From: Lingula anatina | Lineage: Eukaryota; Animalia; Brachiopoda | Reading direction: 5' to 3' | Assembly: GCA_051362555.1 (NCBI GenBank) | Contig: CM120641.1 | Coordinates: forward strand, 32,680,401 to 32,744,400 | DNA: 64,000 nucleotides | Shown: positions 911 to 62,174 of the stretch, piece by piece | How the letters are laid out: every line of letters begins with the position of its first letter | How positions within the stretch are numbered: position 1 is the first letter of the stretch | Position numbers and translations under genes: made by a program | Notes under the pieces: model-generated | Database searches by the model: none | What the model was told of the DNA's origin: nothing | Seen by the model: only the letters and a program-made list of their open reading frames with translations

Positions 911-1298
911 AGTATGCCCTCAATATCAAAAAGAACACAGTCCCTTGTGAACTATGAAGAATATAACCCAGAACCTTATTTCCTTTCAGTGGGTCCTATT
1001 CTTGAGGTTCCCTTTGGACTGGCCTCTACTTGTTTATCAGTAGGCACAGTATGAAAATAGACTTTAGAATCTGTGTTTTGGCAGACAAAGCAGATGATGG
1101 AATGCTAGTACATTTTGAACATATCAGTTAGTTTTAATTGATCATTTTAAGCAATTAGATGAAATCTTGTTTCAGTAGAAGTGGATAAACAGTTAGTGAC
1201 ATATTCTTATTGTAATGGAGTGAAATAGGTTTTTCATTTTCTCTTGTTTAAAATTGGTGAAAACTATTTTTTATTTTCAATTTACTCTGACATTTCAG

Positions 1299-10200: not shown

Positions 10201-10864
10201 AGACAAAGGTAACTCAGACTACAGTGACCAACACTGGTCAGTCACAGTCTAAACTGTCAGGAGACTTATGAGACTGCGTGCATGCCAATTAAAGTAATTT
10301 TTATCAAAATTTTTAAATAAAAAATAAGCTGTTGAGTAAATCATTGCACATGGCAAGGAATGATGGCATGTTCTCTGTCTCTTTATGTCAGGTTATTTAT
10401 GGCCTCTGTTTCGCAACATCTGGCACTGGACCTCAGTTATCAGGAGCTTCTGCCAAATCTGTACAGGAATGAACCAACCATGGTGAGTTGTGTTGTGAGT
10501 TTTAGGTCTAAAGGTAGTTGTGATTATTTAAAAACTTTGTTGACATGTTTGTTTCATTTTGTGTATTCATTTTATTTGAACTGCTGGAGTTATATATTAA
10601 TTTTTTTTCAAATTTTCAGAAAGAGATGTACATCAGCTGCAAGAGCACCTTCAGCCTGTCTCATAACTGTAAAGGACCCGCTTTTGTGACCGTCAGAGTA
10701 AATAAATAAATCTTGTTGTTTTCTATAAAAATCTTGGTTCAGTCCTGTATTAAGTGTTAGAGTTTATGTTGATCTTTTTACAGCCAGTAACACTCCTTAT
10801 GATTTATTCTGTGGAGTTACTGGAGAATTAAATTTAAGGCAGCAAGGCTAACAAAAATAAATGG

Positions 10865-10925
<61 letters not shown>

Positions 10926-19374: not shown

Positions 19375-20332
19375 ATTGTATTTCGAACAGCAAGAGTTGA
19401 TGGTCTTATTTGGACATGATATTCTCTTTGATTGTTTTGTATGACAATATACATGTTGTATAGAGGTAGCATGTTTCATCAAAGGCATTGTATTCACATT
19501 ATTTTGTGCCGCATGTCTTGCCTGAAACAGGTCTTTGTTTACAAAATCAACAAAATTGAAGGCAAAAAATGAGATTTGATTGCATTACTTTATATTAAGT
19601 CCACAGCATGACTTAATTACTGGTACAGCAAATTGTACTGATTGTGTAGAAGCCATGATATTGAAAATGCTTACACACATTGTAGTGAAGCATGTGGCTG
19701 CTGTAATTGGATAAGATTGATAACTTCAAGTGCTTCTTAGCAGGCTCTCTACAAGAATTGAGTGATCTTGACTTGAAGGACCTAGCTCTTACTTTAAGAG
19801 GAATGGAGCACCATTGATTGAAAAATATTTACCTCTCTTTGCCTCTAAGCATTGTTTTTATATTGTTAATATTTTTTATCTTGAATGGTTGTGGTTAACC
19901 AAGCTTATTATTTTATTTAATTTTTTCATTAATAATTAGCGTTAGAAAATGTTAGAACATCGAGTTGGGGAGATTTTAATTTCCTCCCCATTTGCAGGCT
20001 GTGAATGGTTTCAAAGTACTGTTGATATACTTGGCATATGTACATATATTGATAATTCTGGGTCATGTGCCAGTGCACATTGCTTGTTTTTGTGTCTGGT
20101 CATGGAATATTGTGGGAAACTGGTGTAATGTGGGAAACTACATGTAGCTGTGCTTTGGGATGGTGACATTTAGAGTTTCAATGAAAGTACATATATTATT
20201 GCCATAACTTAAACCACTTGGCAGTTCGATACCCAAAACTGTTGAAAAACATTCTTATTTCATTAATTGTATACACTGAAAACTTGACATGGACCTTTAG
20301 AGGAGAGCTGCACTGTGGTTTATTTGATTTCC

Positions 20333-32423: not shown

Positions 32424-35400
32424 TCACTGCAGCACACAGATCTTGCTCTCCTTTTGCCCTGACTGGGACCGCCTTGACTGGGCACTCCTGGCACGCCCTG
32501 GGCTGGAGTCCCTGGAGTTCATCTTTACTTGGTCAGCCTGCACTTGGACTAGTTGTTGCTGAAAATACGGAGTTTTCCATATCTGGTAGTAATTTTTTTT
32601 AGAATTTTTTGCTCGTGCATTTATTGTCAGAATTTTTGTAGAATCTCAAGGAAATCTGCCTTCAATATCGTACAATTTATTTTTTGTGTACTACCAACAA
32701 TGACCATAAAATTTTTATTTTATTTGTTATAACTCCATCAGACGAATTCTCCAAGCTTACCTGCAGAGACATCACAATGTCATAATTAGCTTGCATTTTG
32801 TCACTTTGTTTTGAGAGTTCAGATCGTAGCAGCTTTATTTCAGATTGCAAACTTTGTTCCCTTTCCTATTGAAAAAAGAAAAAAAACAGGTAGGTTATAG
32901 AATTTAATACAACTTCCAATAAAACAGATAAAATATTTATACGAACTGAATTTAAAAAAGTCTACGTATTCACAGATATAAAATAAATCCTGAAAAAAAA
33001 AAAAGAATTGTTATAGAAACTTAAGAAGCTGAGACATTCAAAATTAAATAGATTTTTACATACTTTTGCAGCTTTCTCTGCCTGCTGCTTTAATATGGCC
33101 TGTTCAAGCTTATATTTATCTTCCATTTCTCTCAACCTTTCTTCTGTTCGTCTCTTCTCATCTTTTAGTCTTTCAAGTTCAGTCTGGAAAGAATATAGCA
33201 ATCTCATGACATCTCAATAATGCAATAGAACAATTCAGTTGAAATGGGGAATATCCTTGGATGTACACTTTCCAACCAATTTATTTTGTAAACTTTGAAC
33301 CATAACAAGACAGTTATTATCAGACTGTTTTTCATTCCTCATTTTCGCATTTTCCACATTTTCTTTACCAAAAATTAAATCAGATAATCGAATTTATAAG
33401 AAAATGAAACATAACGCAAGGAAATCATTTGATTAAACTTACACAACTGTGAAATTTTGCATTCTAATGGAAATTCATCGCAAATATTAAAAAATTGATT
33501 CTCAGGGATAAAAGTGTGATTCTGATCTGCTTACTGTTAGATTCTCCTCCCTCCTTTTGTAAGTGACTTCAGATAAAAATCCTCTTGGGGAAGGGGGTGC
33601 ATCCCGCCCTGACTCCGCTCTTAAAGAACACAAATTACAAAATTACATTCAATCTGATTATCAATCTCATATTATTCTTGATTGTTCCACAAAAAATTAT
33701 ATCATATGTTTAAAAAATCTACTTATTCACCTTTATAACTCAATAGCAAGATCACCATGCATCTTACTGCCATAAAAATATTCATCCTGACTCAATAAAC
33801 CATACAAACTACAGCATGCTACTTGTACTTACCCCTTGCCTCTGCCTTTCCCCACAGCTCTAGACCTCACTGACTTTGCTATCTGTGTAGACCCTACTCT
33901 GGTCTTGTATGGAGAGAGAGAAGCCTTCCTTGGCTGCTGTGCTGCTAGCTGGGCCCTAGACACTGGAGTGGGGTCAGATGCTTTTGGGGTCTTGGCAGCA
34001 CTAGAGAAAAAGAACAGGGAGAGCAGGCTTACACTAGGGATTTAAGATGGGAGGTCAAATACAGTACAATGCATGCAGATACATATTGCTACAGTAATAA
34101 TTCACTAAATCCAAACAAAATACATAGAGAAGTTTCCCCAAAACTATCTTTTGTTAGACACGTAATGCCAGCAACCTGCTACATGAGGCCAGTACAGTTT
34201 GCCCTGTAGTTAGCAAAATTCACCAATTCTTAGAAGTTAAAACTCAATGGACAAGCCCATAATGAAAACTCATCCTCAAAAATAAATAAATAAAATTTTC
34301 AAAAATTAATTAATAAAAAAAAAAGACTTTCCAGGGTATGCATGCTCCAAATTTTTATATGGAGTTAAGATGTCCCTTGTGCCAATAATTTTATCACTAC
34401 CTGATTGCTCCTTGTAGGTTATCACTGGAGCTACTACTAGACATGGGATCCACAGGGGTGAACTCCACACCGCTCTCCACTCCAGAAGAACTGCCACGCA
34501 CCTGGAGTGCATGTGGCCTATGGTCATCTTTGAATATCACAGACTCCTGTACAATTAAAAAAACAACATAGACTATATCATAAATCATTTTTCAAAGAAT
34601 AACACTACGTTTCTTTAGTGTTCCTTTGGGTAGTAATTTAAAAGCTACCAGGAAAGGTCTTGTTGAATCTCTCTTAGCCTAATATATCATTTGCCGTAAA
34701 TGATGTCCATTTTTTAAACAAAACAAACAAACAAAAAAAAACTAATTCTGTATACCCACCTTTAATTTCCCTCCATTCTTTTTGCTCCCTGTGCCACTCT
34801 TATCCACACTTTTCTTTTTATCTGGAAAAAATTTAAAAATTGTGGAAAAAATTATTGGAACTCAAGTATAATTATTTCAAAACATAATCTACCATTATGA
34901 CAATATTTCAATAAAATCCTACAAAGTCTTTAAAATGATTTTCCTCAGAATAATAAGTACATCGTAGAATTCTGTACCTGGTTTGAGGTCCTTGTTGACC
35001 TGAATACTAGACCTGGAAGAGTCCAGCATTTTTCCAGGAATATCCTCATCTGATTGGTCAGTTGTGTCATCTGGCTCATTACCATCTTTGATATCCATCT
35101 CTGAGAGAGCAAGCTCATTCTTTATCCAGGCAGGAATCTGAGGGAACATTGAAGATAACTATACATTTGTTGCAACCGTTAAAAATATTTTTCACATTAT
35201 AGTTTTTTAACAGTCATTTAGCCATGGTCTGTTTGCATCAACTGCTTTCCTGAAGTATGGAACAATTATACAATTCTTTCTATGTGTGTTTCTTGAATCT
35301 ACAGAAATGTAAAAAAACATATCATAATTATCCCAACTTCATTAAATGATTTAATATATTGATTCATTAAAGCATAGGTACTATTAGATGAGTAAAATAG

Positions 35401-36730
35401 AATTCAACGCATTATGTAAAAAGCACACTCTTGACAACATCAATAAGCTTTTGTAGCAAAACACCAGTACTGAGCTCTAGGCTGATGGCATCAAAAAATA
35501 AATAAAAAAAAATAATAATAAATCAAGACCTTGCAATGAAAGTGTCCACTTTTGTGCCAGCTAAATGATTATATGACATATCTATAAAACTAACAATGGA
35601 GACTACTTTTCTATACCCTATTCAATTCATTTAAGCAACACAAAATTTCGATTAAAGTTTTAAACTGGTAAAAAAGTAAGTTCTTTACAAAGAGGCTGAA
35701 CATGTTTTTCTACTGATGAGGCATGACAACTTGACCCATCTCCAAAGGGACTTGATCACACAACTGACTCGTTGATGTGAACTCCAGCAGCTAGGATATC
35801 ATGGTAGATGGGGCAGTGGAGTTGCAAAAGCTTGACACAGTTCAGAAAACATAGAGAGAGACTTCATACGTCTTGGGTAGAAAAACAGGTTTAGAAACAA
35901 TTTACTTTTCTACCACTATTACATAAAAGACACTGAAAAATCTATTTCACGAAAAGATAAAACAGTACATGTGCTAGTGTATATTAAAATGTGTTCGTTG
36001 AATCATTTCAAACACTCAAAAAATGCTAACACACACTAAAAAAGTCAGCTTACAACAGGTAGGTGCACTGAAAAGAAAACTGCAGCTCAAAAACTAGCTA
36101 TCAGAAAAAAAATGAATCCAATTAACTATCTACAACACCACAAGCCATCAAACAGTTGGATATTCACCACACTGTCTCCATGGTAATCTGTACTGCCAGC
36201 CACATTTCTACTGCTCTCGCAGACTTTACCTTCGCTGCCTGCCAAATGTTTCTATAAATAAGATAATAAACATTTGACTTGTACATGCTGAATGCAAAAA
36301 AACCAACAGCACCTGATATTCGTTTGTGGGAACACTATGCTGGAGTAGGCATACAATGTGCACTAAACCTTTATATAGTAAAAAATTCATATCCTGGAAC
36401 TTTCAGCAGTTTTCCCTTTACCACTGTGACAATGGGTTATCCTATCAAAAAACATTAAGGACATAATCTGCAAGTCCTTTTTCAAGCTCTATATATCTAA
36501 CTTTCAGTGTCAGAAGTGAAATTTACCATCCCTCATTTCCATTAGAAGAGTGACAACAAAATTAGAAACTTAGAACTCGAACTAGACAGATAAAGCGGCA
36601 ACAACACAGACATTTAACAAAAGCTCACTTTAATCAATCACCCTTCTTTTCAAACTCTACCTGCCCTCATTAATAAGAAAGTTTATTCGCAAATCTGAAG
36701 TAAATCAAATATATGATTTTTTGGGCATTT

Positions 36731-36768
<38 letters not shown>

Positions 36769-39700
36769 TAAATTTAGCATTAATGTGTAAAAAAACATAA
36801 ATAATCCAATAACTTTAGAAACAATAATCTGATCATGCTGTATTATGAACTCTGCCTACATTTTACCAAACAAAATCACAGAGTTAATATCAAGCAAAAC
36901 AAAAAATGATTGAGTAGTTATGAGCAAACCAATGTATCAGATATGACATCAACAACGATGACTTCGTGGTGGTGATGACACAAACAGATATAGAGAATTC
37001 AAAAATTTATATACACAGATATTTGAAGATAGATCTAAATTTTGTGAACAGTTTTAGATATGGTATACCTTGGTGATTAAGGGAAGTTTTAAAACTTCCA
37101 GGGAAATACATAAAGATTTAATGCTCATGGTGTGATTTTTATACTCAACATTTTTATATTCAACTTACAGTGCCATATGTGTCCATTTCTGAAGTTTCTG
37201 AGGAATATTCATCCACAGTATCCCTGCTGTATATTTTTTCAGGAACTTCCAATGTATTGGTGCTGATTCTTTTCCTGACATTATCAAGGAAAAATAAATG
37301 TTCGTAGTAAAACAATACTCTGTAAGCACATTGGGTGCAAATTCAAAAATAACACTTTTCATAAAGTGCAAATCAAATTACCATTATTTTTCTTCTTGCT
37401 AATTATATTCTCAAATAAAGAAAAAATTGGCTAAATATTTATCTTTTTTTTGTAGTTTGATTGTAGAATCTACAGGTTTCACTGAAGTCACTTCCTACCT
37501 AAATGACTTCTTTTTCTTCATTTTCTTCTTGGGTGGAGGGGCCGTTGTTTCAACCTGAACAAAGAGATTTTCACCGTGGCAACAAAAGTTAGACAGCAGT
37601 ACTGTATCTGCTGATGCACCATCAGAAGTAACATTGAGCCTGCAAAAATAAAGACAAAGAGTAAAAATAGAGTGGTTCAGAATCAATGCTGTGTTTATAC
37701 TACGCAAGTGCTTGAAGCTGGGACAATATGACATTCAGCTTTAAGAGAATTGAGGCAGATCTGAAAGGCAAATATATATAAAATCAAAAGTTCTAAAAAA
37801 ATTTTTTGGTTGAACATAGATAACAAATTACAAATGTGAAAATGAATTGAATCACCCTAAAATCTGACAGGTACCAGGCTAAACGTGGTATGAATATTGG
37901 TAGTAGTAGTAATAATCAGTTTATTTACACTACATATGTGTTAAAACCATTACCCACAAGAATTTGTGATAAGAAATAAACTGAAGGTTTCAAATGCAAA
38001 TAGGTATAAGCATAGATGTCCAAGTTTGTTGCAAGTCATAAATTTAATTTCACAGTTCAAAGCTAGTGTACAATTAAACATTTCACATGGAAATGGTAAT
38101 ACTTATTTCTTTATAAAGATTTCAAAATTCACTATTTAAAATGTAGTCCATTCATTCTTATTAAAACGTAAGGTGAAAATTCAAGTAACACAGTCTTAAA
38201 ACAGTGACAATAAGTTCAGTGTCCTAACAATAATTTTGTACCTTGATTCAATATAATCATGAAAAATATGGGTATATCAAAGACTCACATAAGTAAATGT
38301 GTTGGTTGTAGGACCAGGTCAGTCTCATCCTTATTCAGTTCTTTCTCTTTCTCCTGCTCCTTCTCACGTGTCTTGTCTCTGGCTGTTCCAGATCCACTGT
38401 TGGTGCCGGCACTGTTAAGGCGGCGTGGTGTGCTACCTAATTATAAGGCAATTAAAAAGATGCAGTGAGTCAGCTTTGGCCATTGTAATACACTAATTCA
38501 TAATTGGAAGATAGGAAAATACAGACGTGTCTTATATTTCTTAGCTTGTAATTTACACTCTTCTTCAGTGTTGATTTCACACTTTAGATTTTACATCATA
38601 AGATTTCTTGTTTAAATTCCAAATGTACAAATCAGCAATTAAGCCCTTCGCTGCACTTTCACGACTGTTTCTCACAATGTGAATAATTAAAGCAAAAACA
38701 TCAATAATAATACATCTGAAAGTTATCTTTTTCTGGAATAAAAAAAGTTTTTAGCATGTCATAAAATAGAATGTATAGTGTAATCCCATAGCTAAATACC
38801 ATAACTGTGACTAGGGTCTAAATTCACACAAAATTACCCCAACTTGCATGGAATGTACTGAATAAATGAATGAATTAATGATTACGAAAGTGAACTGCAT
38901 ATGTTTTTCTATAAACCTCTTCGCTTTCAGCCACTTACTGATAGGTCTAAATCCCCGAGATGTGCTTGTCCCACTATCATGGCTAGTATTGAGTAGGTCC
39001 TGAGATTGAGATACCACACTGTCATTACTCAGCTGACGGTCACTAAATGGAGGGACCACAGTGGACTCCACTGCAGTGGACCCAGCAGAACCTGGAATGA
39101 CCAGAGAAGTGAACTGACCCAGGTTAAAAAAAAAAAAAACAACTTAAGTCAGTTCCCTGGCTTAGGCTTCGTTCACATGGAAAGTCTATTTTCTAAAAAT
39201 CTATTTTCTATTTGCGGTATCTTATGATCACGGTCTGTGCCCTGAATATCCCGCGGCGTAATTACTGGCAGCGCGAGCCAGTTACTTATAGTAACTTATA
39301 GTAACTGGCTTGCGCTGCTTTAATGCAAAATATTTTTTTACCTTAAAGTTTAAAGCTAATCATTTAAATAACCTACCTCCCCTACTGGTGAGTGACAGTT
39401 TTTCCTGAGCAATTTCATTGGAACTGTTGAGGCTCTTCATACTGGACATACTAGGCTGCCGAGAGTGAGACGGTTTGCTGGAGTTAGGACGACTTGCATT
39501 TCCACTCTCTGAAGTTTTTGTGTCTGCAATGTCATTAATACTGTTGGTACTTCTCTGTGTGTCATCCATGGCGGTGGGCGGAGTTTTAAAGCGTGTTCCC
39601 CAAAAGTAGAATTCATTGTCTGAAGTACTGACTGCTGTATACATGTCACCACATCTTGCTCTCTAAAATCAGAAATGATTGACCCAAATTTCTTATATTA

Positions 39701-42700
39701 GGCAGGAAAAAGAGTGTACTGAGTGTCTCTTTTGCTGATGGTATATAGATTGGAAACGCAGAGACTGTAATGCAGAGACTGGAAAATTACATACACAAAC
39801 TGCGTGCAAAGTCACTATTTTTGAAGCTACAGTGAAAACACTGATAACATTAATTTTCTAGTTATTATTATTTAAATGTTTTAATATGGAACAGAGAGTT
39901 AAGGTTATTTCAATCATCCATTAATGAGAAAAAATCTTCAAGTAAAAATGAATTATACAATTGAGAGGTGGACACAGAATTTCATTTTTTCCCTTTCAAG
40001 ACCGTTTCACATAAATTATTAAATTGCTTCATAATTCTCACTCAATTTCACCAAACTCGCCACAAAGCTGTCTCAATCACAGACTCCAGCTCAATGGCTT
40101 ACCGAGACCACTTTCCCATCCATGGCTTTCACTTTGATTGGTGCATTTTGCTGCTTTGTGTTTCCTGTCCCCAGCTGACCCTCGGCATTCTTTCCAAACG
40201 TATACACATGCCCTGGCTCCACCAGGACTGCACTGTGCTTGGGACCCAAAGACGCATTGATCACTCGGTGGTTGGTGAGGGCTCGCACAATGGTAGGAGC
40301 CTTCACCTCTTCGACCTCAGTCTGAAAAGATTCACGGAAATATTGACTGCATTAATGAACCTAAACTTTTTTGCAAATAACCAAAGATCGAAATAAAGAT
40401 TGGAGTATTATAGAGTTATGCAGGTAAATCAACTTAGATATTTTTTGATACAATTATGTCTATGGCATCTATGTCATAGACTATACTGTATGAAATATGT
40501 TTTTTTACTCTTCAAGACTAAATATTCTTTTTTTTTCTGAATAAAAATGAACAATTGACATAAACAAGAATACTTACACAGAGAAAACAAGATTCCTAAA
40601 CATTCTCAAAGAGTGCATTCCCAGAGATTTAGATCGATCCAGAGATTTAGATTTAGATCGCCCTAACTCCCTGGGGGTTCACGCTAAATTGCAGTCAGCC
40701 AAGCGCGCACCATAGTTAATTACCCCCTTACAGCTTTTAGTAGGCGGGACAGACATTTAAGCTTGTTAAGCTGACACCAATCTAGTGAGACTCCCCAGGG
40801 GGATAGATCGATCTAAATATCTATGGGAATGGGGTCAAAGACTGACCTTTGCAAATATGTTCTTCATAGCCATGAGGAACCCCTGCCTGTTGTTAAGTCC
40901 CAGTTTATTGTATTCATTGTTCCCAAATGCCAGCACACTGCCCACATCTGTCAGTAGCATGGTGCCATCCACACCACAAAACACCTCCCGCACCATCATA
41001 GGTTCTGTGATTTTCACCTGCATGGGTTGGGCACTGAAAGGAGCAGAACAGAATCTAAAATCATCTCAGTACGGTTAGTTTCCTTCTTTTATTCTCTCTT
41101 TTCTTTTCTCTCTATCACTCATGAAAGAAAATTGAATATGAAAGACGAAATTTTTTTCATTTTTAATAATAACATTAGAACCCAAATGCTTATCAGATAT
41201 TATTACAACTAGTAAAACTAAAACCATTTGTTTCCTTAAAAGAACAAAAAGGCATATAAATTATCTTTTGCATCTTAAAAAAAAAAATTATTAAGTGAAA
41301 TAACTTTTTCATGGCCAATTGATGAAGACATTAAACATCATGCCTCACAGTCAAAAAGAATAAGAATAACCTTGGACCCAAAATATATCTTCTATCCTAG
41401 GAATAATACACTTTTTATCAACATCTTTATAATGATGACATTGGCATTTGACCTCTGACACTATCAGCCCTGAAGGTAGATGGCAGCACTGTGCCAGTAC
41501 GGGCCACAATCCTTACCAGTCCTCCTCATTGCCATGGCCTAGCCTGCCGTGACTGCCTTTGCCCCAGGAGAAGATCTCACCATCTCCACCCACCACGACC
41601 ACATGGTGCGGACCACAAGCCACTGAGGAGACGTCAACACTGAAATGAGAACAATTACATCAACACTAAAATGTACCTGAGGAGAAACTGTAGAATGTGT
41701 GAAATGTACCTGAGGAGAACCTGTAGAATGTGTAAACTGTACCTGAAGAGAGCTTCCATAATGTGTAAACTGTGCCTTAGGAAAACCTGTAGTAAACTGC
41801 ACCTGTGGGATTCCTGTAGAATGTGTAAAATGAACCTAAGAAGAGCCTGTAGAATGTGTAAACTGTACCCCAGAGCCTGTAGAATGTGTAAAATGTACCT
41901 GAGGAGAACCTGTAGTAAACTGCACCTGAGGAATGCCTGAAGAATGTGTAAAATGTACCTGAGGAAAACCTGTAGAATGTGTAAACTGTACCTGAGGAGA
42001 GTCTCTATAATGTGTAAACTGTACCTGAGGAGAACCTGTAGAATGTGTAAAATGTACCTGAGGAAAACCTGTAGAATGTGTAAACTGTACCTGAGGAGAG
42101 TCTCTATAATGTGTAAACTGTACCTGAGGAGAGCCTCTATAATGTGTAAACTGTACCTGAGGAGAAACTGTAGAATGTGTGAAATGTACCTGAGGAGAAC
42201 CTGTAGAATGTGTAAACTGTACCTGAAGAGAGCTTCCATAATGTGTAAACTGTGCCTAAGGAAAACCTGTATTAAACTGCACCTGTGGGATTCCTGTAGA
42301 ATGTGTAAAATGAACCTGAGGAGAGCCTGTAGAATGTGTAAACTGTACCCCAGAGCCTGTAGAATGTGTAAACTGTACCTCAGAGCCTGTAGAATGTGTA
42401 AAATGTACTTGAGGAGAACCTGTAGAATGTGTAAACCGTACCTGAGGAGAGCCTCTATAATGTGTAAACTGTACTTGAGGAGAGCCTCTATAATGTGTAA
42501 AATGTACCTGAGGAGAGCCTCTATAATGTGTAAAATGTACCTGAGCAGAACCTGTAGAATTTGTAAAATGTACCTGAGGAAAACCTATAGAATGTGTAAA
42601 CTGTACCTGAGGAGAGTCTCTATAATGTGTAAACTGTATCTGAGGAGAGTCTCTATAATGTGTAAACTGTATCTGAGGAGAGCCTCTATAATGTGTAAAG

Positions 42701-45700
42701 TGTATCTGAGGAGAAACTGTAGAATGTGTGAAATGTACCTGAGGAGAACCTGTAGAATGTGTAAACTGTACCTGAAGAGAGCTTCCATAAAGTGTAAACT
42801 GTGCCTGAGGAAAACCTGTAGTAAACTGCACCTGTGGGATTCCTGTAGAATATGTAAAATGAACCTGAGGAGAGCCTGTAGAATGTGTAAACTGTACCCC
42901 AGAGCCTGTAGAATGTGTAAAATGTACCTGAGGAGAACCTGTAGAATGTGTAAACTATACCTCAGAGCCTGTAGAATGTGTAAAATGTACTTGAGGAGAA
43001 CCTGTAGAATGTGTAAACCGTGCCTGAGGAGAGCCTCTATAATGTGTAAACTGTACCTGAGGAGAGCTTCTATAAGCCTTGGTCTGGAGTTGGAGTACCA
43101 GTCTCCGTGGCCCAGACAGCCATTAGAACCATCCCCACATGTCATGATGATGCCATTATCACTGGCAAATACACTGAAACAATCCCCACAGCACGCCCTG
43201 GAATAGGAGATACATCTTGAACACATCACTTTTTCACATCACTGAAATTTATAGAAAAAGAATTTACTGGGTTCAATGGTGGATCCAGATAAGAGGTGGG
43301 GAGGGGGGGGGGGGGGCATATGTTACACTTTAAAAATGCCCTCATCTATTGTTTCATATTTGTAAATGAAGCAGTCTTTATGCCCCCCCCCCCCCACACA
43401 CCCATAGCAAAATCTTTGATCTGTCAGTGAAGCTCTAAGATATGGAAGAAAAGTGTCAATGATTCAACTCTTTAGTAGCACACTTTTTAGTAACCTAGTA
43501 CCTTGTAATTGACTTCCCCTTTAGCGCCTCTACCATTTCTGGTTTAGTTAGAGACTCTTGATCACCATGTCCTAGCTGACCTTTGCCCCCTTCACCCCAT
43601 GTGTAAACTACTCTCTCATTGGTCACTACAATCACATGATCAGCACCAACAGCAATCTACGGGAAAATGAAAAGAGGAAAAAAAGGGTTGTTGTCATCAA
43701 AGACTTTATAACTTGTTCTGTATGTTATGAATTCATTTGTGACACGAATAATTTGCATTCATATGATTCTTATATCTTAGACTATTAAAAAAAGGTCAGC
43801 ATTTTATTACCACTGCAGTAGCTAATCCTGGGGCATTAATACTAATCATTAGGTAGAATTACTGGAAAATACATTAATCAAAGACCATGCTCACAAGGAT
43901 ATTAATTTAGACTAGAAATAGCAATTTTCCCTTTATAACCTATTCAAAACCACTGAGAAAAGAACAATCCATAAACCTCATTTCCAGGTGGAGTTTTATG
44001 TTACTCATTTTGTCATCTATATCCAATTTGAGGTTGACTCAAAATCTAGACAACAGAACTATAAAAAGGGTTTATGGATCAAAATTTAGTGAATGTTTTT
44101 TAATATGGTATATCTTGGTGATTAAGTAAAATGTGTTGAAATTTCATTTTTTGTTACTTTTAAAAAGGCCAAACGCTCACTCTGTGTCTTTTAATACCAT
44201 ACTGAGCAATTACGTTTTATATGACAGTTAGACTTAGAATGTGTATGTGTGAAAATGACGTAAACAACCCAGCAAAAAAATGTCTACCTCTCTTATCCTG
44301 ACTTTGGCTGGAAGATCAACTGGGTGAAGTTTCATGTCCCACGTCTCTAGGTAATATAAAACTGACCTGAAATAAAAAGACACACACTCTTAATTTTGTA
44401 TTCTCAAATAATTGACATATTGGAATTCTACTATAGAAATATTATCATTTATCGTTATTTATTAAATGCTACAAAAGACTGAACAGCACAGGCTTTTAAA
44501 AATATTTTAATTGAATGTTTAAAAACAAGCATAACACTCTATGAACAAGTATATCATAAAACCTTTTTTAATTTCTTGAAATCATCTTTCTGTATTTTTA
44601 CCAAATATATGTTACTATATGTCAGGGGTGATATTTGTTTGATTTAATGTCACAGGCAATACATGCCTGAATTTGACTCAAAAGACTAGTTACTGCTCTT
44701 AACACAGGAAATCTGATATTCATAAATATCACTTTCACCCCTTGAATGTTTGTGCAAAATAACTGCAGTTAAAATCAAATGGATGAAATCTGTTTCCTAG
44801 AACAAGAAAATATTTTTGCAACATCCCTAGTATATTATAATAATGTTAATAACATCATAATAAAGGAAACTTTATTTTCAAATCAAACTGCATCACTGTG
44901 TCACAATATCTATTTTCAGAAAAATCTACAAGAACACGACAATAGTAAAGAGGAAAAGGACACTTAATTAATATACAGAAAAATTTTGCTATAATAGTCA
45001 CTCAAATGAAAAAGAAGAAAACTATTTAAAGAGAAAAAACAAAGCCAATAAAAAGTATTTATCACATCATCATCACTTCAGTTGTTACATCACTTTACCT
45101 ATTTACTGCAGAGTTGCTACATGTAACAAAGACCAAACAGAATTACTTTCATTCCAATAAATAATTCATTTCCAGTAATAATGGTTAATTGTTTTCACTT
45201 AAGCAACTAATTCACTTTGGAGAGCTGTGATGAAAACAAATTTTGCTAGATTAAGAGCTAAAACGTTTTGGTCAGCTGTGCACTTATTCATTTCCTTTCA
45301 ATTAAAAGAAAAAGATAAAAACAAAAAGTTTTGAATAAAGGGTAAAAAGAAGACACCTGCTGAAACAATGCTTGGAGGCATTTTTTTTTAGAATATGGGT
45401 AAGTTAGTGCCAGTTAAAACATTCACAACACACAATCCATTTACCTATTATCCAGTGAATAGCTAACAAAGCAAAGCAAAAATGAAAATAAACATAACAA
45501 ACAAATTAAAGCTGTTACTTAAAGCACTTTTTATAAAATTCATGCATTTTAAATGAAATGCAACTTACAAAAATACATCAATTGTATGATTACATCGGAA
45601 AGGGTACTGTATTAATCTTCAAATGTTATTCAATAAATATAAATCTAATTATAGAATAACATAATATATTAAATATTTAAATTATTAACAGTTAGGCCAC

Positions 45701-47401
45701 ACTTTTTTAATTTTATGGATGACATCCTGCGCGCGCACGGATTTTCGCCCGTTCTCCAAAAAAAAAAAAAAAAAAAAAAGCCCCCCCCCAGCCCCCAACG
45801 AAGTCGGTTGTCGCAAACGTTGTTATTGAATTTGCAAGGAAATGAGCTTTCTGCGCATGCGTATTTTCGCCACGTGGAAATGCGGCCACTTTGCTGTCAA
45901 ATTCATCTCTAGGATTACTTTCAAATTACACAACAATAAAAGTCATAAAGAGAACGGGCGCCATCGTTTTGGATTGGTATGCCATTGATATTGGGCATGG
46001 AGATATATCACCTTTTTACAATTGTGCGAAAGGCTGGCGGCGGCCGAAACATTTCTGTGACATTCTGTATAAAGCAGCACATTAATACCAGGTTTTCTGT
46101 AGCGAAAGAAGGGTCGACAAGGGCGTCGAGGTATTTGGTGGGCTGAAGGTCGGACAGGCCACCTGACAGTTTAGCTGCTTCGTGTGAGTTGAAGTTGACA
46201 AAATGGCATCGTCTGAAATGACCTTTAATAGATTTGGTAGTATTAAGCATATCTTTGCATCATTTTTTAAACATTTCTGTGAAGTGTTCAAAATGTTTTA
46301 ATATTCTGAGAATACAAATAAAGACACACTGTTGATTGATATTTGTTTTATTGATTGCTATACCAAATGAATGCATGAAATAACCTTAAATAGATTTGGT
46401 AATATGAAGTATATCAATTCATGACTTTTTTTACATTTCTACGAAGTATTCACAATGCTTTAATATTTTGAGAGCATGGATAAAGACATATTGTTAGTTT
46501 GATATGTGTTTCTGTGGTTAAATTTGTGTTTCCAGCTGTGTACTGACAGCATTCCTTTACTTAAGCAGTTTTTTTTTTTTTTTGGACTGTTTTTTTTTTT
46601 TTCGCCCTCTCGCACCGATTTTGGGGTACTCAGAGGATGTCATCCATAAAAATAAAAAAGTGTGGCCTTATTCTATAACTAGAAATGTTATTTTCATAAT
46701 AGCCACAAGAATGCTTCAGCTGTTCAATTGAATAAAACAGACCAAGCATAACTGATCATGCACCAAAATAATCCACAGACCTTTAGTTGAATACAAGCAA
46801 AGCAGAGAATGCAACCCAAAGAATCCTAACAAGAGCATTCAGACTTGGATTCAATAAAACCAATGATTCTTTCAAATGCCACCAGATGTCATTAGCTCAC
46901 AGCTGGGACCAACCCTCTTCGCTCCCACCCCCCTCCCCCCAGACACTCCTTTGGACTTACATTTCAGCATTTTCCCTTTATCAACAAGAATTTTTCCTTT
47001 ATCAACAAAAAATCCCCTTTCCAAAAAATGCTGCAAGAGTTATATCTGTAAAGCTGCTTTTGAGTTCAAAAAAGTTTATTTTTACCATCATGAATCTCCC
47101 TATTGAGAGTGACTCAAAACCCTGAATTTTAGAACTTATAAACAAGCTTGTGAATCAAAATTTTGTGAACGATTTTGGATGTGATATACCTACAGTGATA
47201 AAAAGAAAAGTGTTGGAATTACCAAGAAAAACAAATTTTGCACTTAAATGTTTATCACTTAATGTGTGCTTTTAAAGATTCCATTATCTTAATGACAGCA
47301 GTAAGGATATTTCTGATTTAAGTTAGTCTAGCCCTGAATGCACCTTAGGTGTTAATCTGCCTTTTAAACAAAACCCTACATGTTATAACGATTACAAAAA
47401 A

Positions 47402-47433
<32 letters not shown>

Positions 47434-50400
47434 AAAAAAAAAAAAAAACTACTTGCTAGGCCTGGGTATTGGGCAAGATATAGAAATCAATACTTTGGTG
47501 TTGTTTGTGTTTACCTGGTTTTCTTCCTCAGCTTCATGGTACTGCTCTCAGTGGAGGTAGTGAGGTCGTCTTCTATGTCTGTTACAGGGTCAAGAAACCT
47601 CTCCATTAGCTGCACAACAACAAAAGAATCTTGATGATACAATGCTAAATAATGTTTTTTTTTTTTCTTTTTTTTTTGTAACTCTACAATAATCCCCTAC
47701 ATCTTCTATGCCTATTATAGGGTCAAGAAACCTCTTCATTAGCTGGACAACAACAAAACAATTCTAACTATACAATCATACACAATGTTTTTTTCTGTAA
47801 CTCAAAAATAATCTCCTTCACCCCCCCCACCTCCCCTCCCAAAAAAATCAATAAATATATAAATAAAATTCTCTCCATAACCATGTTAGTTTCTATAAAA
47901 TTTAAATAATGCTTTTTTTTCATAACTGCATGATCTCCATCCCCACCCTCAAAAAAATCTCATCATCATGTATTCTTTTATAAAAAAAAAAAATACTCTA
48001 CATAGCAGGAATCAGCGCTGAGACATTAAGACAAAACCCACCCGTCTGCATTGATTGAGATGTTAATCAAAGTGATTTTGTCATGCAGTATGAATCCAAA
48101 TGTTTTCAGCAAGATTAGGCTGAGCTTACTGGAGGAATTTTCTTATACATCAGTTCATATGCTGAAGGTCTGTACTGCGGCTCCTTCTCCAACATATCTC
48201 TGATGACAGCTTTGAACTCGGGACTGTAGTTGCCCTTCACTGGGGCAAATTGACCCTAAAAGATGACGAATTCAAGAAAGGAATAAATTCTCTCCGTTAA
48301 ATAAGCTTATAAAGTTTCATGCTTGCAAAGAAAAAATAATTACAATTTTGCATTTAAAGATAATGTCAGCCCATTTTGCATGATGCTTAGTTATTAGTAT
48401 GAGTATATCTTGCTGCCAATCAATAATTTGCAAGTTGACAAATGATTAATCTCCCTGACATCCTTAACGTATGAGCTACATTAAGCTAATCACATCTTAC
48501 TAGATATAAAACAATTCTTGGTATGAACCTATTGAGAAAATACTTTAAAGGACAACTCAGTGGGTTAGATTAATGTATAGAAGCAGGTTCTATGTAAAAC
48601 TTTGATCAGATTTGTGTTTTGGGAAATTGTTTATTATTATATGAATAAGTCTGGGTCACAAAAGTCCTGTTAAGACAACTAGAATAAAGAATTAGAAAAC
48701 GAAAACTATTTATCATGATTTCGGAGCACAGCCAGAAGTACTTCCGGCTCAAGGTCACGACCTCGATTTTCCCACGTTTACGACCAATCACAGCAGGCTT
48801 CAGTCAGAATGAGATAGACGTCACGACTACACAGCGAAACTTGTCAGACATGTAAGTGCCGCCTGTCCATCTTTTCGGTACATGTACCGATCAAAAACAG
48901 AAAACGTAAAGCCCAAAACGCTCTTATACACGTAACCAACTTTGTATGAGCACAAATATTGTCATTTATTGTGAACAGGATAATATGATAATCAGACACA
49001 CTTGAGACCTGTGAAGCGCATACTCACGTGTCGAGGAGTAGTTTCGCCATTGCCTCGTATGTGAGTCCTAACTCAGCTTTAAGTGTCCTCCACCGTCCCA
49101 CCTCCCTCCCAACATACACAGTCTGAGTGCTTCTTCGTCTGTCTCTAATTTTCTTTCGTATCTTTCGAACTGGAGTGGCTATTTTCTTTTGCCCCCTTTT
49201 GTCGCTCTCCTGTTCAGACTTGACGTGCGTCTGAGCCATGTTTGCTGTTTTGGCGCCAAATAGTAACATCCGGGTCTCAGCCGTAGTACTTCATTCATAG
49301 TAAACCGCGAGACTTAGCGAGAAATTGCGCGTTCTGAAGCCGTACTGTGAGGTGGTAGCTGAGTATTTAAGACGAGTCGTCTTTTATTATTTAATGGAAC
49401 TTAAAAACGGTATTAGGTAGCTTCATTTTCTGAACGGTTTTGGATAGGATATACCTTGGTTATTATGGGGAAATTAGTGAGTTTTCCAGGAAAATTCATT
49501 TTCGTGCTATTTTAAGGGTTTAACGCGCTGAGACTGTCTTTAAAGGTACATACGAACCGAGCATCGGTGGAGTGTGGATTCCCAGTAACACATGTAAACC
49601 ACTTCTACTAGATTCTTAAATGGCTCAAACAAATTCGACATGCCAAGGGATAAACTGAATAGATCACTCGATCAGCCATAAAAGACCTTTAGACTGCTCC
49701 TTTCTTTAAATTTATGGTTGTAAATTTAACCTACTTCCGTGACCTACTTTCCTACCCCATTGACATACAGCTTAGAATGCCAGCAGAAAAATCTGTTCAA
49801 ACATCATTTTCGGGTAAAATTAAACAATGCCTTTTGGTAATTCTCTTAGTTATACTACTTGAAACTATATGCTGGCATTTGGTTAGTTTTTGTGACAAAA
49901 AATTGACTTTGTATGCATCTTTAAGCTTCCTTTAGTTCAATGAACTCTCATTGAGGCCATTTCATTTGAACTAGTCTGAAATATTAAATACTCAGCTGTT
50001 CCAATAACTCAACAATTAGCACATATTTTCCTCACATTATTTGCTAATAAGAAAACACAGGACTGATTTCAAACCAGCACAGTTTTACATTTAAACTTTT
50101 CTCATCAGAATTTAAGTCACTAATAATGACATTTTTTTTACCTTCATAATTTTATTGACTAGTGCAGGAAGATTTGAACCCTCAAAGGTTTTCTGAAGAC
50201 AAGCCATTTCATAAAGAATACATCCCAAAGCCCATATGTCTGATTTGTCATTGTACGCCTTTCCTTCACACTGAAAATTAAGATAATATAATATAATATA
50301 ATATAATATAATATAATATAATATAATATAATATAATATAATATAATATAATATAATATAATATAATATAATATAATATAATATAATATAATATAATATA

Positions 50401-53400
50401 ATATAATATAATATAATATAATTATCAATGTCAGTTCTGCATAGGAATGTCTGTTAACCTATTACCATCAAATTTCATAGTCCATAAAATTCTGTGATCG
50501 AAAAAGGTAATCCCTTACAGTTAAATAATCAGAACTCTTGGCAATTACATCACGTAAAAATATTCATGAAGTACCAATTAGTTTCTTTCTATGCAATCAA
50601 ACTACTTGATAATTGCAAGCTCATTAAACAGACTCACCATTTCAGGACTAATATAATATGGGGTCCCCAATACTGTGTTTGCTTTGGCAGCTGTGGTCAT
50701 CATTTTAGAAATACCAAAATCCCCCATTTTTACAACACCTTCTTTAGTAAGGAAAACATTAGCCGTCTTAAGATCTCTGGAAATCATACAGCACATACAT
50801 GTATATAAACCCATTGCAAATAAGGCTCTATTCCCATAGATTTTAGATCGATCTATCCCCGCGGGGAGTCTCACTAGATTACTTTCAGATAATCCGACTT
50901 AAATGTCCGTCCCGCCTACTACAAGCTGTAAGGGGATAATTAACTTTCGTGTCCGCCTGGCTGACAGCTATTTAGCTTGAACCCCCAGGGAGTTAGGTCG
51001 ATCTAAAGTAGGTCGATCTAATCTATGGAAATGGGGTGTTAGAGAAAATATGTATATTTCTTTGTAATGAATGGAAAATATTACCGAAAGATATTCAATA
51101 AAAACATACATGATACCTTAATATTTAATTTTTTTTAGATTTGTACATACTTCATCTATTGCTTGTTTACATTTTTAATATTCACCTTTCTAAGCATAGT
51201 TAATAAACAAAGTAAAGGACAACAAATAAAAAGATGAAAAGAGCGGATAGATAAACTATTCTTCTTACAGTAATCGTCTTTAAATCATTTACAGAAATCA
51301 TTAGGAACTCTCAGACATGTTCCAGTAATGAGACATGTAGCAAAGGTCAATGATATAATACACACGTACAATTAACTATATTTCAGTTCCCCCATACACC
51401 AAATCAATGCAGTAAGATTTATATGAATATTACCTGTGCAATATATTGTGTTCATGTATGTGTCTTATGGCAGCAACCATTTGCTGAAACATGCCAAGGA
51501 TTTCTTTCTCTTCAAGCGGCTTTTCTTGAGAGCTCAAAAACTGAGCCAGTGTGCTGAAAACGGATACCAGATTTAAGGCAATATTATCTAATACAGGAGA
51601 AAAAGATATATAATTTAGCAAACAGAAACCTTTCCCACATTTATTATTAAATTAATCAATTAAAAACAATTAACAAACACTTTTTAACATGACCATAAAC
51701 ACATAAAAAATCACAAGGAGAAAATGCTGTGTCAGTGCAAAGAAAGGCTAATAACAGAGATTAATTGATGCATTAATTCAATGAACTTTCAAACCTACAA
51801 TTTACCATTTGCTAAAACAAATAATATAATGCACAGGTGCACTTACCCTCCATCTGCATATTCCATCTCAATCATGAGAGTGCCGTCCTCCTCAAAACTG
51901 TCATAGTAACTGATGATATTTGGGTGGTCCAGCATTGCCAGAACTTTCACCTAAAGGAAATGTGAAAGAAAAAAAAATCAAGTTGTAATCCTACAGATGT
52001 AAATATTACAAAGACATAAATCAATCCAATCTTTAATTCACACAAATTAATTCCTATGGCAAGATCAAACTTTAATTCACACAAATTAAATTCCATGACA
52101 AGATATGACAAATTAAATAAATAACTAAATAACTTCCACCAAGGTGATGCTGTAAAACTATGATATGTACAGTGATAATCAAACATTTTTCTTAGAAATA
52201 AACATGAAAAGACCTTATCTTCATTATTTAATATGTCAAATGTATTCATAGCATGTAATATATACTTAAAGCAGTTTTCATCTTTCGATATCTGTCTAAT
52301 GCAAAAAATCAACCAACAATATATAAAGACATGTGATGGAAGACATTTAAACAGCCAAATTTTCATTTAATAACTATTCAAATAAAAAAGAAACTGCCTT
52401 TGTTTTTGCAGTTCATGCTCGCAATAATTTGCCAATGACATAAAATTAACATTAACACCAGGTCTACAACATTTAAATATCATAAATAGGATAACCTGTA
52501 CTTGAACATCACAATGTTTCTTCCACTGGAACAAAGGCCTTAATTTTTATAGTGTGTGTTTTATCTTTCAGGACTCATATATGGTAAATAAATTGACATT
52601 TGTTACTTGGAGCCAAGTAATAAAATATTGAATTGGAACCACTATTTCATGTTGCAACTGTATAAATACTGGCTGCGAACATCACTTTATTGGCTGCAAA
52701 CAATTGGTGAGGTTAAGAACTGCTTTCATTCAGGTCTTTCAATGTTTAGATACAGGTTCTTTTTCGTGACTGCAAACTATTTTCTAAATGGCAGAAGATA
52801 CGAGAAGCTGTATGTCAGAGATCTGGAGCTTCCAATTTGAAAAAGAGAGCATTTTCTCCTATTTCTATAAGCTTATTGACACCAACACAAAGAATGTGAC
52901 TCAGCTATGATTGACAGAATTTCAGGCAGCAAATTTTATCAGTTGGCATGCTCACCCAATGCACATTTGATAATCTGACTGGATTTGCAGGCCAAAGTTA
53001 ACAACAAAATGCTCACGTTCAATTTTGATACAATCGGAACATGAAATTGTGATTCTAGGTCATTGATTTGTAAGTTAAAGTACCCTTTTCCTTTGGGAAT
53101 GGTATTTTAAAATCACCACTAGAGGGACACTTAGCACCCTGCAGCAGGCCGAGTGATTGGTCAGCCAGATCACGAGACATACTTGAAATCATTGGCAGAT
53201 AAAGCCTGGCAGCTGTTAGAGCTGGACATTGCATTAGGGCTCTTGTGCATATTTGCTTTTAATCAGCTTAAAGAATAAGTGTCGAAGATTTTCCCACCCC
53301 TCCCGTCCCTCATATGGGCGGAAGGCGCCTCTTACAATGACATTATGGTATTTATATGATTTGCGTACATGATGTTCACTCAGTATCAGATACTGATCCA

Positions 53401-56400
53401 TCTTTTTGTACTACAAAGGAATTTTGTACAGCTGTGCCTAGTAATATGGCTATCTGTACCTTAAGTTTTGCAATTCATTCACATATTGACATACTGTGTT
53501 AAAGAAGGGAATTTTGATCAGCTGCCCTTAATAATATTTCTATATGTATCTTAAGTGTTGCTATTCATTCACATACATGTTGATGTACTTTGTCTAAGTA
53601 GTTACTGTTGGTATAGTTATGCAACTTATTAACATAGTATTAATAAACACTAATTCACTGCTAAAAACTATTGCAATTTTGGTTATAAGGCACATCTTCA
53701 TCATACTAGTATACTTTGACAAGTTCTTCTCTGTTATTATGCTACACAGGACTTGACTCTTGACTCTCTCTCACAAGTTCTCCACAAATTCACTTCCTGC
53801 TGCTTATGAGAAAGTTACACAATTGGCTGCGCTGAGCATGTAACTTCCATATAACTCTTACGCAAAAGCCAATTAAGCTATCAAGGTGCAAGCGTGAGTC
53901 TTCTGTATGACTCTTGCGCAAAAAACAAACTATCAAGTTCTAGTGTGAAATTTCCATATAACTCTTACTTAAAAGACAAGCTATCATGGTGTCAACGTGA
54001 GATTTCCGTAAAACTCTACGCAAAAGCCAAGTTATAAAGCACTAGTGAGATTTCCATATAAATCTACCATAAAAGGCAAGCTATCAAGGTGCCAACTTGG
54101 GACTTCCGTAGTAACTAAAAAAAAGTAGCTATCAAATTGCCAATCTCCTCCCAAAAATACCATACAGCTGCACTGCTAAGACATAAAGCTTCATGTGAGA
54201 AAGCCTTACATATGTTAATCTTAGCTAATCCAGAGGCAAGAACGTAAAATTTAACAAGAACAGATCACTGCAATAACTTACCTCATTCAGTGCGAGTTGC
54301 CTCTCGCTAGCATTGAGGTCATGCATGTTAATCTCTTTCAATATAACTAAGGAATCGTCATCTTTCTTACGGTACAATACCGCTGTACCATAAGCACCTA
54401 AAAATATCAAATCAGAGGACTAGTTTTATATCTGACACAATTCATTTATCATACTTTCTTTTAGAATAAAGAAATATGACAATATGTATAATGTTATTTT
54501 CTATTTTAAAAAATGTACTTCTGTCATATAATTATATACCTTTCCCAACAGTCCTGATTTTTTCAAATCCAGACAGACTCTGTTGCCCCCACTTTTTAAG
54601 TTTATCTAATCTAAAGTAGAGCTCTCCTACGCAGGATCTGGAACAAAATATAAATAATATTCTAATCAAGTATAAGAATTAAAATAATTAATAATGAAAA
54701 GCAAACTATTTGATATCAATAATCTTATTATCACATCTAGGATGAATATTTATGGGATTGAGAGCAAATGCTCTATAGATCTAAGACCATTCAGAAAAGT
54801 AAAATTTGCAGCAATCATGAGAAATCAAGAAATATTTACCAATCACAAAACTCACTTTAATAAACATGCAACAATCCTTTGGGCTTTAAGTAAAGTTAAG
54901 AATTTACCTTAATTTGATACAAAAATTCTCGATAGTTTTACACAACTGGGTTAAATTATTTATCAGATTAAAAAATTGTTAAACTGCTCTGGCCAAGCTT
55001 ACACTGGAGTTTCGGAATCCACAGCAATCCTTTCCATAGGTATATCATTACCACTTATGTCTTTGGAAATGCCAACTGGGACCTGAAAAATAGCACAAGG
55101 GTAGTTAAGTATGGTCAGTTTCAGAGGTCTCTGCAAACAAACCTCTCTTTTCTCAGCATTCCACTGCCATTACTTGATTATATTTTCTACTTTAAATTCT
55201 TAAAATAATTCTGTCGCTATTAAATAGCCATTTGTGCCAATGCTAGTTGCTTACTTAATTTCCAACCAGTCAGAGAAGAATAAATGTTATTAATGTAAAA
55301 TGAAGCTGTTTGACTTGGAAAAAATAAACAGTTAGCAGTACAGAGCTCTTACCCCAACTAAATCTTCAATGATATTAGCAATGATTCCTCCATCTACATT
55401 CTGTGCAGTATTGCAGCCTAAGAAGTCCAGTCGAGAATTCACCCAGCTTTTGTCTAAATGGTTTGTTGACAGTGTTGTAAAAAATTCTCTTATGCTGGCA
55501 TGCTCTAGTATATTCTCCTTTGTCACAAGCTGAAAAAAGGGGGAATGCAATTGGCATGCTTTTCTCTTTCTCTCATAAACAATCTCAAAGTCTCCAAAAT
55601 TCTTGAATCTTCAAAGCATCATCTGCCAAAATGATCATTGGTAATTTTTTCAACCAGTTGTTTGAAATTATTTATCCCCTCAAGATGACAAATGGTTGAT
55701 AGGCAGTCAATGAAACGTTAAACTGAAGGACAGTAGTCCCTGTATCAGAGGACAAGCATTAGCTGACAAGTTGGTTGGAAACAAATATCTAATTCACAGA
55801 AATTCTAACTAAGACCCCATTCTCATACCTAGATCGATCTAGCAGGATCGACTCATCTCCGAGGGGTTTTCTCGCTAAATTGCATTCAGCATAAGCGGCT
55901 CTGATGATTGGCATGAAGCTATCATTAAAAGCTTCAGTAGGCATGCCATACATCTAAGTCACTTAATCCGAATGCAATTTGGTGAGAATCCCTTTGGAGA
56001 TGGGTCAATCCTGCTACCTTGATCTAAGCATGGGAATGGGGTCTAAAAGACTTTAAAATGACAATTTAACTTTCTTTAATTACTGACAAAACTGAAAACA
56101 TTTACATATAAACCACTTTAATTTTCAACCAATCAGAGTAGAATTATTGTTATAAACCCAAATTGAAATTATTCCCTTTAAAAACATCTTATTATTACTG
56201 TTACCTTTTCTTCTACCCCACAGAGATGAATACAGCGACCTGTGCTGTGCATGATAAGTGCTATACTTTCCACTTTTTTGGAACCAAGGCTCTGAGCAAC
56301 TAAGCCTGAAATTGCAGATCAAATTTGAGAATATTTCTAATTAAATCAACACATTTCAGTACCACAAAAAATATGTTATTTACAAATATTAATTACTAAC

Positions 56401-62088: not shown

Positions 62089-62174
<86 letters not shown>

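What the first reader, a model, noticed from the sequence alone, without database searches (positions are those of the whole stretch)
41640..43073. An intron built from 43 frame-preserving tandem copies of its own 5' splice junction
Seen: the 1417-nt NEK intron 41640-43056 has only 37 nt left after its last donor copy. The other 1380 nt are 43 copies of a unit made of the exon's last 17 nt plus the intron's first 16 nt (ATAGAGGCTCTCCTCAG|GTACAGTTTACACATT). Most copies keep CAG|GTACA, so dozens of near-identical donors compete for one acceptor. Every unit is 33, 30 or 27 nt, so all donors stay in the authentic phase. The exon frame reads through ~14 units ([22 protein letters not shown]) before the first stop at 42585. 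Many units also read pyrimidine tract-CAG|GT, an acceptor fused to a donor. Inference: the array could act as (a) a ladder of alternative donors inserting n x 9-11 aa into the RCC1 propeller, (b) a source of NMD isoforms when distal donors are used, or (c) a recursive-splicing ratchet array. It may also be a neutral expansion that survives because the first donor wins.
Basis: partly seen in the sequence, partly recalled or inferred. Interest (0 to 1): 0.85.

Follow-up and report, generated by a model that had tools for sequence, protein, structure and literature searches.

The report
Splice-donor minisatellite in brachiopod kinase intron
In a brachiopod kinase gene, a 33-base piece covering the end of an exon and its splice signal is repeated 43 times and fills almost the whole next intron, but the few RNA reads found use only the first signal, so it is likely a harmless repeat of a kind already known from several human genes.

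Summary
The array is real. Intron 16 (43056-41640, 1417 nt) of the Lingula anatina NEK/RCC1 kinase gene LOC106159131 is 43 units of 33, 30 or 27 nt plus a 37-nt tail, and unit-to-unit joins occur in another study's DNA. The proposed functions are not supported. All 7 sense reads that reached the donor stop at the first donor; the 3 with a listed partner join exon 17. No sense read lay on the first or last unit. The RefSeq protein has no insert. The sample is small (up to about 35% read-through not excluded) and the array interior was not tested. The open frame needs no selection: 1 stop seen, 1-2.4 expected. Only 20 of 43 copies keep CAG|GTACA; the second copy has GT>GC. The intron position is old. 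This is a new member of the junction-spanning minisatellites of human F7, CBS, LMNB2, PDGFA and 6-16, where the first donor dominates. The scan found this kind before: 16 notes in at least 10 other genomes. Minor extras: a weak hint (P about 0.08) of selection against donors near the exon, and a copied acceptor junction in the tail.

The parts
32427..63225 (-). Host gene: NEK-type kinase with DUF4347, kinase and RCC1-like domains, LOC106159131 of Lingula anatina, 32 coding exons
   Evidence: P0002 (XP_013390784.1) splices onto the window with 2 residue differences in 1509; Pfam
43057..43197 (-). Exon 16 (141 nt); its last 17 nt are the exon part of the repeat unit
   Evidence: both borders seen in RNA loose ends
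43051..43059 (-). Authentic donor CAG|GTACAG, the first of 44 donor positions and the only one seen used
   Evidence: 7 of 7 sense reads reaching it stop at 43057; 3 listed as joined to exon 17
41677..43073 (-). Junction-spanning minisatellite: exon end plus 43 units of 33/30/27 nt, built from three related multi-unit blocks (units 5-11, 22-28, 37-43)
   Evidence: unit-to-unit joins in DNA contigs of run X1
43018..43026 (-). Second donor copy, changed GT>GC; its paralogue in unit 20 keeps GT and is the best-scoring donor of the array
42639..42705 (-). Donor copies 12-14 with GT>AT (dead)
   Evidence: the unit 11/12 join with AT also stands in a contig of X1 (table 7, reverse complement read by eye)
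42585..42587 (-). The only stop codon of the exon frame inside the array (unit 15); donors 16-44 would give a premature stop
41640..41676 (-). 37-nt intron tail with the true acceptor and a branch-point-like A at -21 (41660)
   Evidence: branch point is a motif match only
41657..41673 (-). 17-nt copy of the acceptor junction, 26 nt upstream of the true one
   Evidence: 15 of 17 letters; 0.01 matches expected in shuffles of the window
41517..41639 (-). Exon 17 (123 nt)
   Evidence: RNA depth about 14 in X12, joined to exon 18 by 13 reads

Best explanation
Intron 16 is filled by a 43-unit minisatellite copied from its own exon/intron border, the spliced reads found use only the first donor, and the array is likely a neutral by-product of tandem duplication. 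Inferred history: a 33-nt piece (17 exon nt, 16 intron nt) of an old, conserved exon border was duplicated, diverged into variants, and grew by block duplications of 15-17 units; most of the earlier intron body was probably lost, since only 37 nt remain. Inferred mechanism: exon definition from the exon 16 acceptor picks the most upstream donor, as shown for human F7 intron 7, and the copies are cut out with the intron. The shared phase follows from a unit length that is a multiple of 3 and two in-frame deletions. Trace leakage to other copies is possible, and weak selection may have removed the nearest strong competitors (hint only).
For: RNA: sense reads reaching the donor (X12 2, X13 3, X14 2, read from the depth bins) all stop at 43057; the X13 loose end (3 reads) is the start of exon 17. 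No sense read on unit 1 in 3 of 3 runs; no read on unit 43 in 4 of 4 runs, of which only X12 (depth about 14) and X16 (about 2) cover exon 17. Sequence upstream of 36 of 43 copies is alike enough (31 nt or more at 90%) to have been laid on one of the two units offered. The one RefSeq protein has no insert, and most homologues read straight through the site. Intron position old: unspliced ORFs from other genomes leave homology at the same border (P0029/32/39, P0033, P0040, P0042). No sign of selection for an open frame: 1 stop seen, 1.1-2.4 expected, P(1 or fewer) 0.30-0.71. 29 of 43 copies lie behind the stop; of the 14 before it only 4 score as high as the true donor. Junction-spanning duplications also stand at the acceptors of introns 1, 12 and 16 of this gene. 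Precedent: F7, LMNB2 and PDGFA use only the first donor (PMC1557585).
Against: Only 7 informative reads from one study (P5), about 6% of each run read; 0 of 7 leaves up to 35% read-through, and starts may be duplicates. Poly(A) RNA under-reports NMD substrates. 21 of 43 copies score as high as or higher than the true donor on a matrix from this gene's other 30 introns. Both deletions in the array keep the frame, and the 6-nt one has only a 1-nt microhomology. In CBS and 6-16 two further copies are used. One opposite-orientation read pair in X12 does cover 29 nt of unit 1; it also runs 12 nt into intron 15, so it is unspliced at both ends (inferred from depth bins). The RNA individuals differ from the window by SNPs, so their arrays may differ.
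Confidence: 0.8

Rival explanations
1. Regulated ladder of alternative donors: donors 5, 10, 11 or 15 would add 43, 95, 106 or 150 residues inside the RCC1-like domain, and donors 16-44 would feed NMD and tune expression.
For: All donor positions in phase; frame open through 14 units; 21 of 43 copies score at least as the true donor; both deletions are multiples of 3; CBS and 6-16 use two extra copies. The site maps about six residues before the 'VACG' strand start, likely a connector between propeller blades (inferred and general RCC1 knowledge).
Against: 0 of 7 reads read through, no sense reads on units 1 or 43; no insert isoform in the protein collection; the nearest copies are the weak ones (2: GC; 3, 4: scores 4.3, 4.7; 12-14: AT); stop count as expected by chance; inserts would be hydrophobic repeats, and of the homologues printed only a Capitella gene model has a short (7-residue) insert there.
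Confidence: 0.1
2. Recursive splicing: internal AG|GT sites act as ratchet points and the intron is removed in steps.
For: 30 of 43 unit borders read AG|GT, several with acceptor scores near the true acceptor (up to 9.5 against 9.3). Human lariat data show recursive splicing in smaller introns too, mostly as a rare stochastic mode (PMC10156609, passages).
Against: In flies recursive sites sit mostly in introns over 40 kb and nearly all segments exceed 1 kb (PMC6110457, passages). The intron is 1.4 kb; steps of 33 nt and the final 37 nt are far below the shortest intron in this gene (142 nt). The acceptor-like look is inherited from the exon's own pyrimidine-rich end. The mature mRNA would be the same, so no function follows.
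Confidence: 0.04
3. The intron itself was born from the tandem duplication of an AG|GT-containing exon piece.
For: The array makes up 1380 of 1417 nt; the unit contains AG|GT.
Against: The letters after GT in the unit are not the start of exon 17, and other genomes break at the same codon position, as do two gene models (P0026, P0037).
Confidence: 0.02
4. The array is an assembly artefact.
For: Three near-identical blocks (222 nt, 5 mismatches between two of them) could be mis-joined, so the exact count of 43 is not verified.
Against: Contigs of run X1 hold unit-to-unit joins and rare unit variants also seen in the window, and their summed depth on one unit is 1217-1720 against 65.5 on the exon (rough, the tool says it is no copy number). 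X1 holds 0.67 of the words while non-array words are 36% of distinct 31-mers. 29 distinct units.
Confidence: 0.02

Closest known systems
Human F7 intron 7 37-bp VNTR (Borensztajn et al. 2006, PMC1557585; abstract, Introduction and Discussion read whole, passages of the reference list)
   Same: First unit spans the exon/intron border, so the donor is repeated down the intron; only the most upstream donor is used.
   Different: F7 has 5-9 identical copies of a 37-nt unit (not a multiple of 3) with 4 exon nt. Here there are 43 diverged copies with 17 exon nt, all in phase, filling 97% of the intron. Polymorphism and the scanning mechanism are shown for F7, not here.
Human CBS exon 13/intron 13 31-bp VNTR, c.1444_1467+7(16_21) (PMC2630376, passages; Yang et al. 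2000 seen as a title only in the reference list of PMC1557585; the paper was not held)
   Same: [quoted passage not shown]
   Different: CBS uses two extra copies at some level; its unit shifts the frame; 16-21 copies.
Human LMNB2 100-bp and PDGFA 81-bp intron repeats; interferon-inducible 6-16 minisatellite (seen only as described and cited in PMC1557585; originals for 6-16 and LMNB2 not held)
   Same: [quoted passage not shown]
   Different: Longer units and fewer copies in LMNB2 and PDGFA; 6-16 uses its three most proximal donors.
Recursive splice sites (ratchet points) of flies and humans (PMC6110457 and PMC10156609, passages)
   Same: AG|GT with upstream pyrimidines.
   Different: Known sites are single, conserved and mostly in long introns; here they are dense by-products of a repeat in a 1.4-kb intron, with no lariat evidence.

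Membership tests
Junction-spanning intronic minisatellites (F7 IVS7 / CBS / LMNB2 type) | Tandem array whose first unit spans an exon/intron border | tested here: met
   RNA allele makes the exon end identical to the unit's 17 nt
Junction-spanning intronic minisatellites (F7 IVS7 / CBS / LMNB2 type) | Donor sequence repeated down the intron as pseudo-sites | tested here: met
   36 of 43 copies keep GT, 10 incl. the true one read CAG|GTACAG
Junction-spanning intronic minisatellites (F7 IVS7 / CBS / LMNB2 type) | Splicing uses the first (or the first few) donors | tested here: met
   7 of 7 reads stop at the first donor; low depth, minor use not excluded
Junction-spanning intronic minisatellites (F7 IVS7 / CBS / LMNB2 type) | Copy number varies between individuals (VNTR) | tested here: inconclusive
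   X1 holds the array; one contig leaves the window's unit 1 at 43037, but no contig spans the array
Junction-spanning intronic minisatellites (F7 IVS7 / CBS / LMNB2 type) | Pseudo-sites become active when the first donor is mutated | not testable with these tools
   needs a minigene
Regulated alternative 5' splice-site array | Two or more donors seen in mRNA | tested here: not met
   0 of 7 reads; no sense reads on units 1 or 43; one RefSeq isoform; low power
Regulated alternative 5' splice-site array | Selection for an open reading frame in the insert | tested here: not met
   1 stop seen, 1.1-2.4 expected; two in-frame deletions remain a weak point in favour
Recursive splice sites | AG|GT with a strong upstream pyrimidine tract | tested here: met
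   30 of 43 borders AG|GT; scores up to 9.5 on a 30-intron matrix
Recursive splice sites | Long intron, segments over about 1 kb (typical, not absolute) | tested here: not met
   1417 nt, 33-nt spacing
Recursive splice sites | Lariat or intermediate reads at the internal site | not testable with these tools
Intron gain by tandem duplication | Intron absent at this position in relatives | tested here: not met
   same border in ORFs of other genomes

The most novel reading that the evidence does not exclude
The array is a length-variable, in-frame donor ladder under selection: in some tissues or alleles a minority of transcripts use donors 5-15 and insert 43-150 residues into the RCC1 propeller, while donors nearest the exon have been knocked out (copy 2 GT>GC, copies 12-14 GT>AT) and one stop in unit 15 caps the ladder and sends longer forms to NMD.
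Probability: 0.07. Interest if true: 0.65.

Novelty: new member of a known kind. Interest (0 to 1): 0.2.

Why it matters
As read here it adds a brachiopod case to a known oddity and suggests that first-donor preference, shown in mammalian cells for F7, also holds in a distant invertebrate against about 20 equally good copies. Because all copies are in phase and block paralogues give internal controls, it is a tidy natural test of whether selection removes competing donors near an exon. It would matter more only if several donors prove to be used.

Tried and rejected
No whole genome was held, so the genome-wide rate of such arrays could not be counted; only this gene's 31 introns served as background. 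X15, X16 and X18 barely cover the gene and gave no information on the junction. In one search an interspersed repeat at 40800-40840 drew most reads and pushed any loose end at 41639 out of the table (19 rows not shown); 6 reads cover 41633 in X12 and their partner is not listed. Study P2 may be the assembly's source and was left out of the artefact argument. The 421-residue open frame on the + strand was rejected as a repeat by-product: spliced reads come from the - strand gene. Proximal donors score lower than distal ones (mean 3.7 against 5.4, rank test P 0.03), but copies are not independent, so this was not taken as evidence; the event-based count is 2 of 8, P 0.08. The unit has no real match elsewhere in the window (best E 0.23). 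A paper search on Lingula (3 of 4 terms) gave nothing on this locus in the 15 rows listed; that is not a full check of print. Look-ups of earlier scan notes on this genome, its relatives and 'Lingula' returned nothing. No fold was run: it would not decide which donor is used.
Full report
Gene and intron. The exon upstream of the array matches one protein at 100%, LOC106159131 of Lingula anatina, 1509 residues, with DUF4347, kinase and RCC1-like domains. It splices onto the minus strand of the window as 32 coding exons, 63225-32427, with 2 residue differences. The finding is intron 16, 43056-41640, 1417 nt, phase 2. The other 30 introns are 142-6155 nt long.

Observation. The intron is 43 units (34 of 33 nt, 5 of 30, 4 of 27) and a 37-nt tail. 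All donor positions share the phase of the true donor. The exon frame first stops at 42587-42585 in unit 15, the only stop of that frame inside the array. The copies are more diverged than stated: 29 distinct units, 20 of 43 with CAG|GTACA, 36 with GT, 4 with GC, 3 with AT. Units 5-11, 22-28 and 37-43 are related blocks (222 nt, 5 mismatches between the first and last), which points to growth by block duplication (inference).

Is it real? Contigs of DNA run X1 hold unit-to-unit joins, including the rare variant of unit 16 and the AT donor of unit 12 (reverse complements read by eye), with summed depth 1217-1720 on one unit against 65.5 on the exon (a rough sign only). No contig spans the array, so the count of 43 is unverified.

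Age of the intron. The intron is therefore older than the array. The 37-nt tail is much shorter than any intron of the gene, so most of the earlier intron body was probably lost (inference).

Which donor is used? Reads were laid on two flanking stretches, each with one unit, not on the array interior. In one search (X12, X13, X14; 30 reads laid) the sense reads that reach the donor number 2, 3 and 2 by the depth bins, and all stop at 43057; the 3 in X13 continue into exon 17. No sense read covers unit 1. The only cover is one opposite-orientation pair in X12, about 43028-43209, which also enters intron 15 and so is unspliced. In one search, exon 17 has depth about 14 in X12 and the control junction to exon 18 has 13 reads from 9 starts, while unit 43 has depth 0 in all 4 runs; three of those runs barely cover the gene. 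Sequence before 36 of 43 copies is alike enough to have been laid on one of the two units. The one RefSeq protein, alone in its cluster, has no insert. Limits: 0 of 7 leaves up to 35% read-through, all from one study, in poly(A) RNA that hides NMD substrates.

Is the frame selected? Half of the unit is coding sequence read in its own frame. With 35-48 changes among the units, 1.1-2.4 stops are expected and 1 is seen (P 0.30-0.71). The phase rests on three events: the 33-nt unit, a 3-nt loss within CTC CTC-like sequence, and a 6-nt loss. Two in-frame deletions of two is mildly unusual, but the locus was picked for this property. 29 of 43 copies lie behind the stop; only 4 of the 14 before it match the true donor's score.

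A hint of selection against competitors. Unit 2 differs from its paralogue unit 20 by one change, GT>GC, and unit 20 has the best donor score of the array (8.7 against 6.2). Units 12-14 have GT>AT where their paralogues keep GT. That is 2 of 8 changes private to the first block hitting the GT, P about 0.08 (my count of events). It parallels the CBS case (title only) and argues against a ladder, but it is not significant.

Acceptor side. The tail holds a 17-nt copy of the acceptor junction 26 nt upstream of the true one (15 of 17; 0.01 expected by chance); the RNA allele at 41633 would make it 16 of 17. A branch-point-like A at -21 lies between the two AGs, which would explain why the upstream AG is skipped (inference). 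Introns 1 and 12 also carry upstream copies of their acceptor junctions (40 nt at 80-85%; 93 nt at 84%), so junction-spanning duplications are not rare in this gene.

Comparison. Minisatellites whose first unit spans an exon/intron border are described in human F7, CBS, LMNB2, PDGFA and 6-16; only the first donor, or the first three, are used, and for F7 an upstream-first selection was shown by mutagenesis (PMC1557585). I found this paper before looking at earlier scan notes; those list 16 such findings in at least 10 genomes, 8 shown, unchecked by me. Recursive splicing is typical of long introns but occurs rarely in smaller ones; nothing here tests it. PMC2812944 (one section) and PMC10078293 (passages) show that repeats at exon borders and repeats affecting splicing are common in humans. 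No supplements were read.

Verdict. Real, well described, and a new member of a known kind. Best reading: neutral minisatellite, first donor wins (0.8). Interest 0.2.

Noticed in passing
window 47702-47794 (- strand), intron 12: 93-nt copy (84%) of the intron 12/exon 13 acceptor junction, with 41 exon nt, 133 nt upstream of the annotated acceptor.
   Followed up: partly
window 57227-57490 (- strand), intron 1: Three degraded copies of the exon 2 acceptor junction about 540-770 nt upstream of the annotated acceptor; could be old duplicates or unannotated small exons.
   Followed up: partly
window 43028-43209: One opposite-orientation read pair in X12 spans exon 16 and enters both flanking introns: genomic DNA, antisense RNA or mis-stranded pre-mRNA.
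   Followed up: no
   Followed up: no
window 40800-40840, intron 18: A short interspersed repeat draws hundreds of RNA reads from other loci, on both strands.
   Followed up: no
window 43654-43656 and exon 28: The window differs from XP_013390784.1 at residues 631 and 1354.
   Followed up: no
window about 1200-19400 (+ strand): Exon-like open frames of another gene; 6 tried gave no Pfam hit. One resembles EPG5 by recall only.
   Followed up: partly
window 53845-54116: A second, degraded intronic minisatellite (period 51, 5.2 copies) in intron 7, not at a junction.
   Followed up: no
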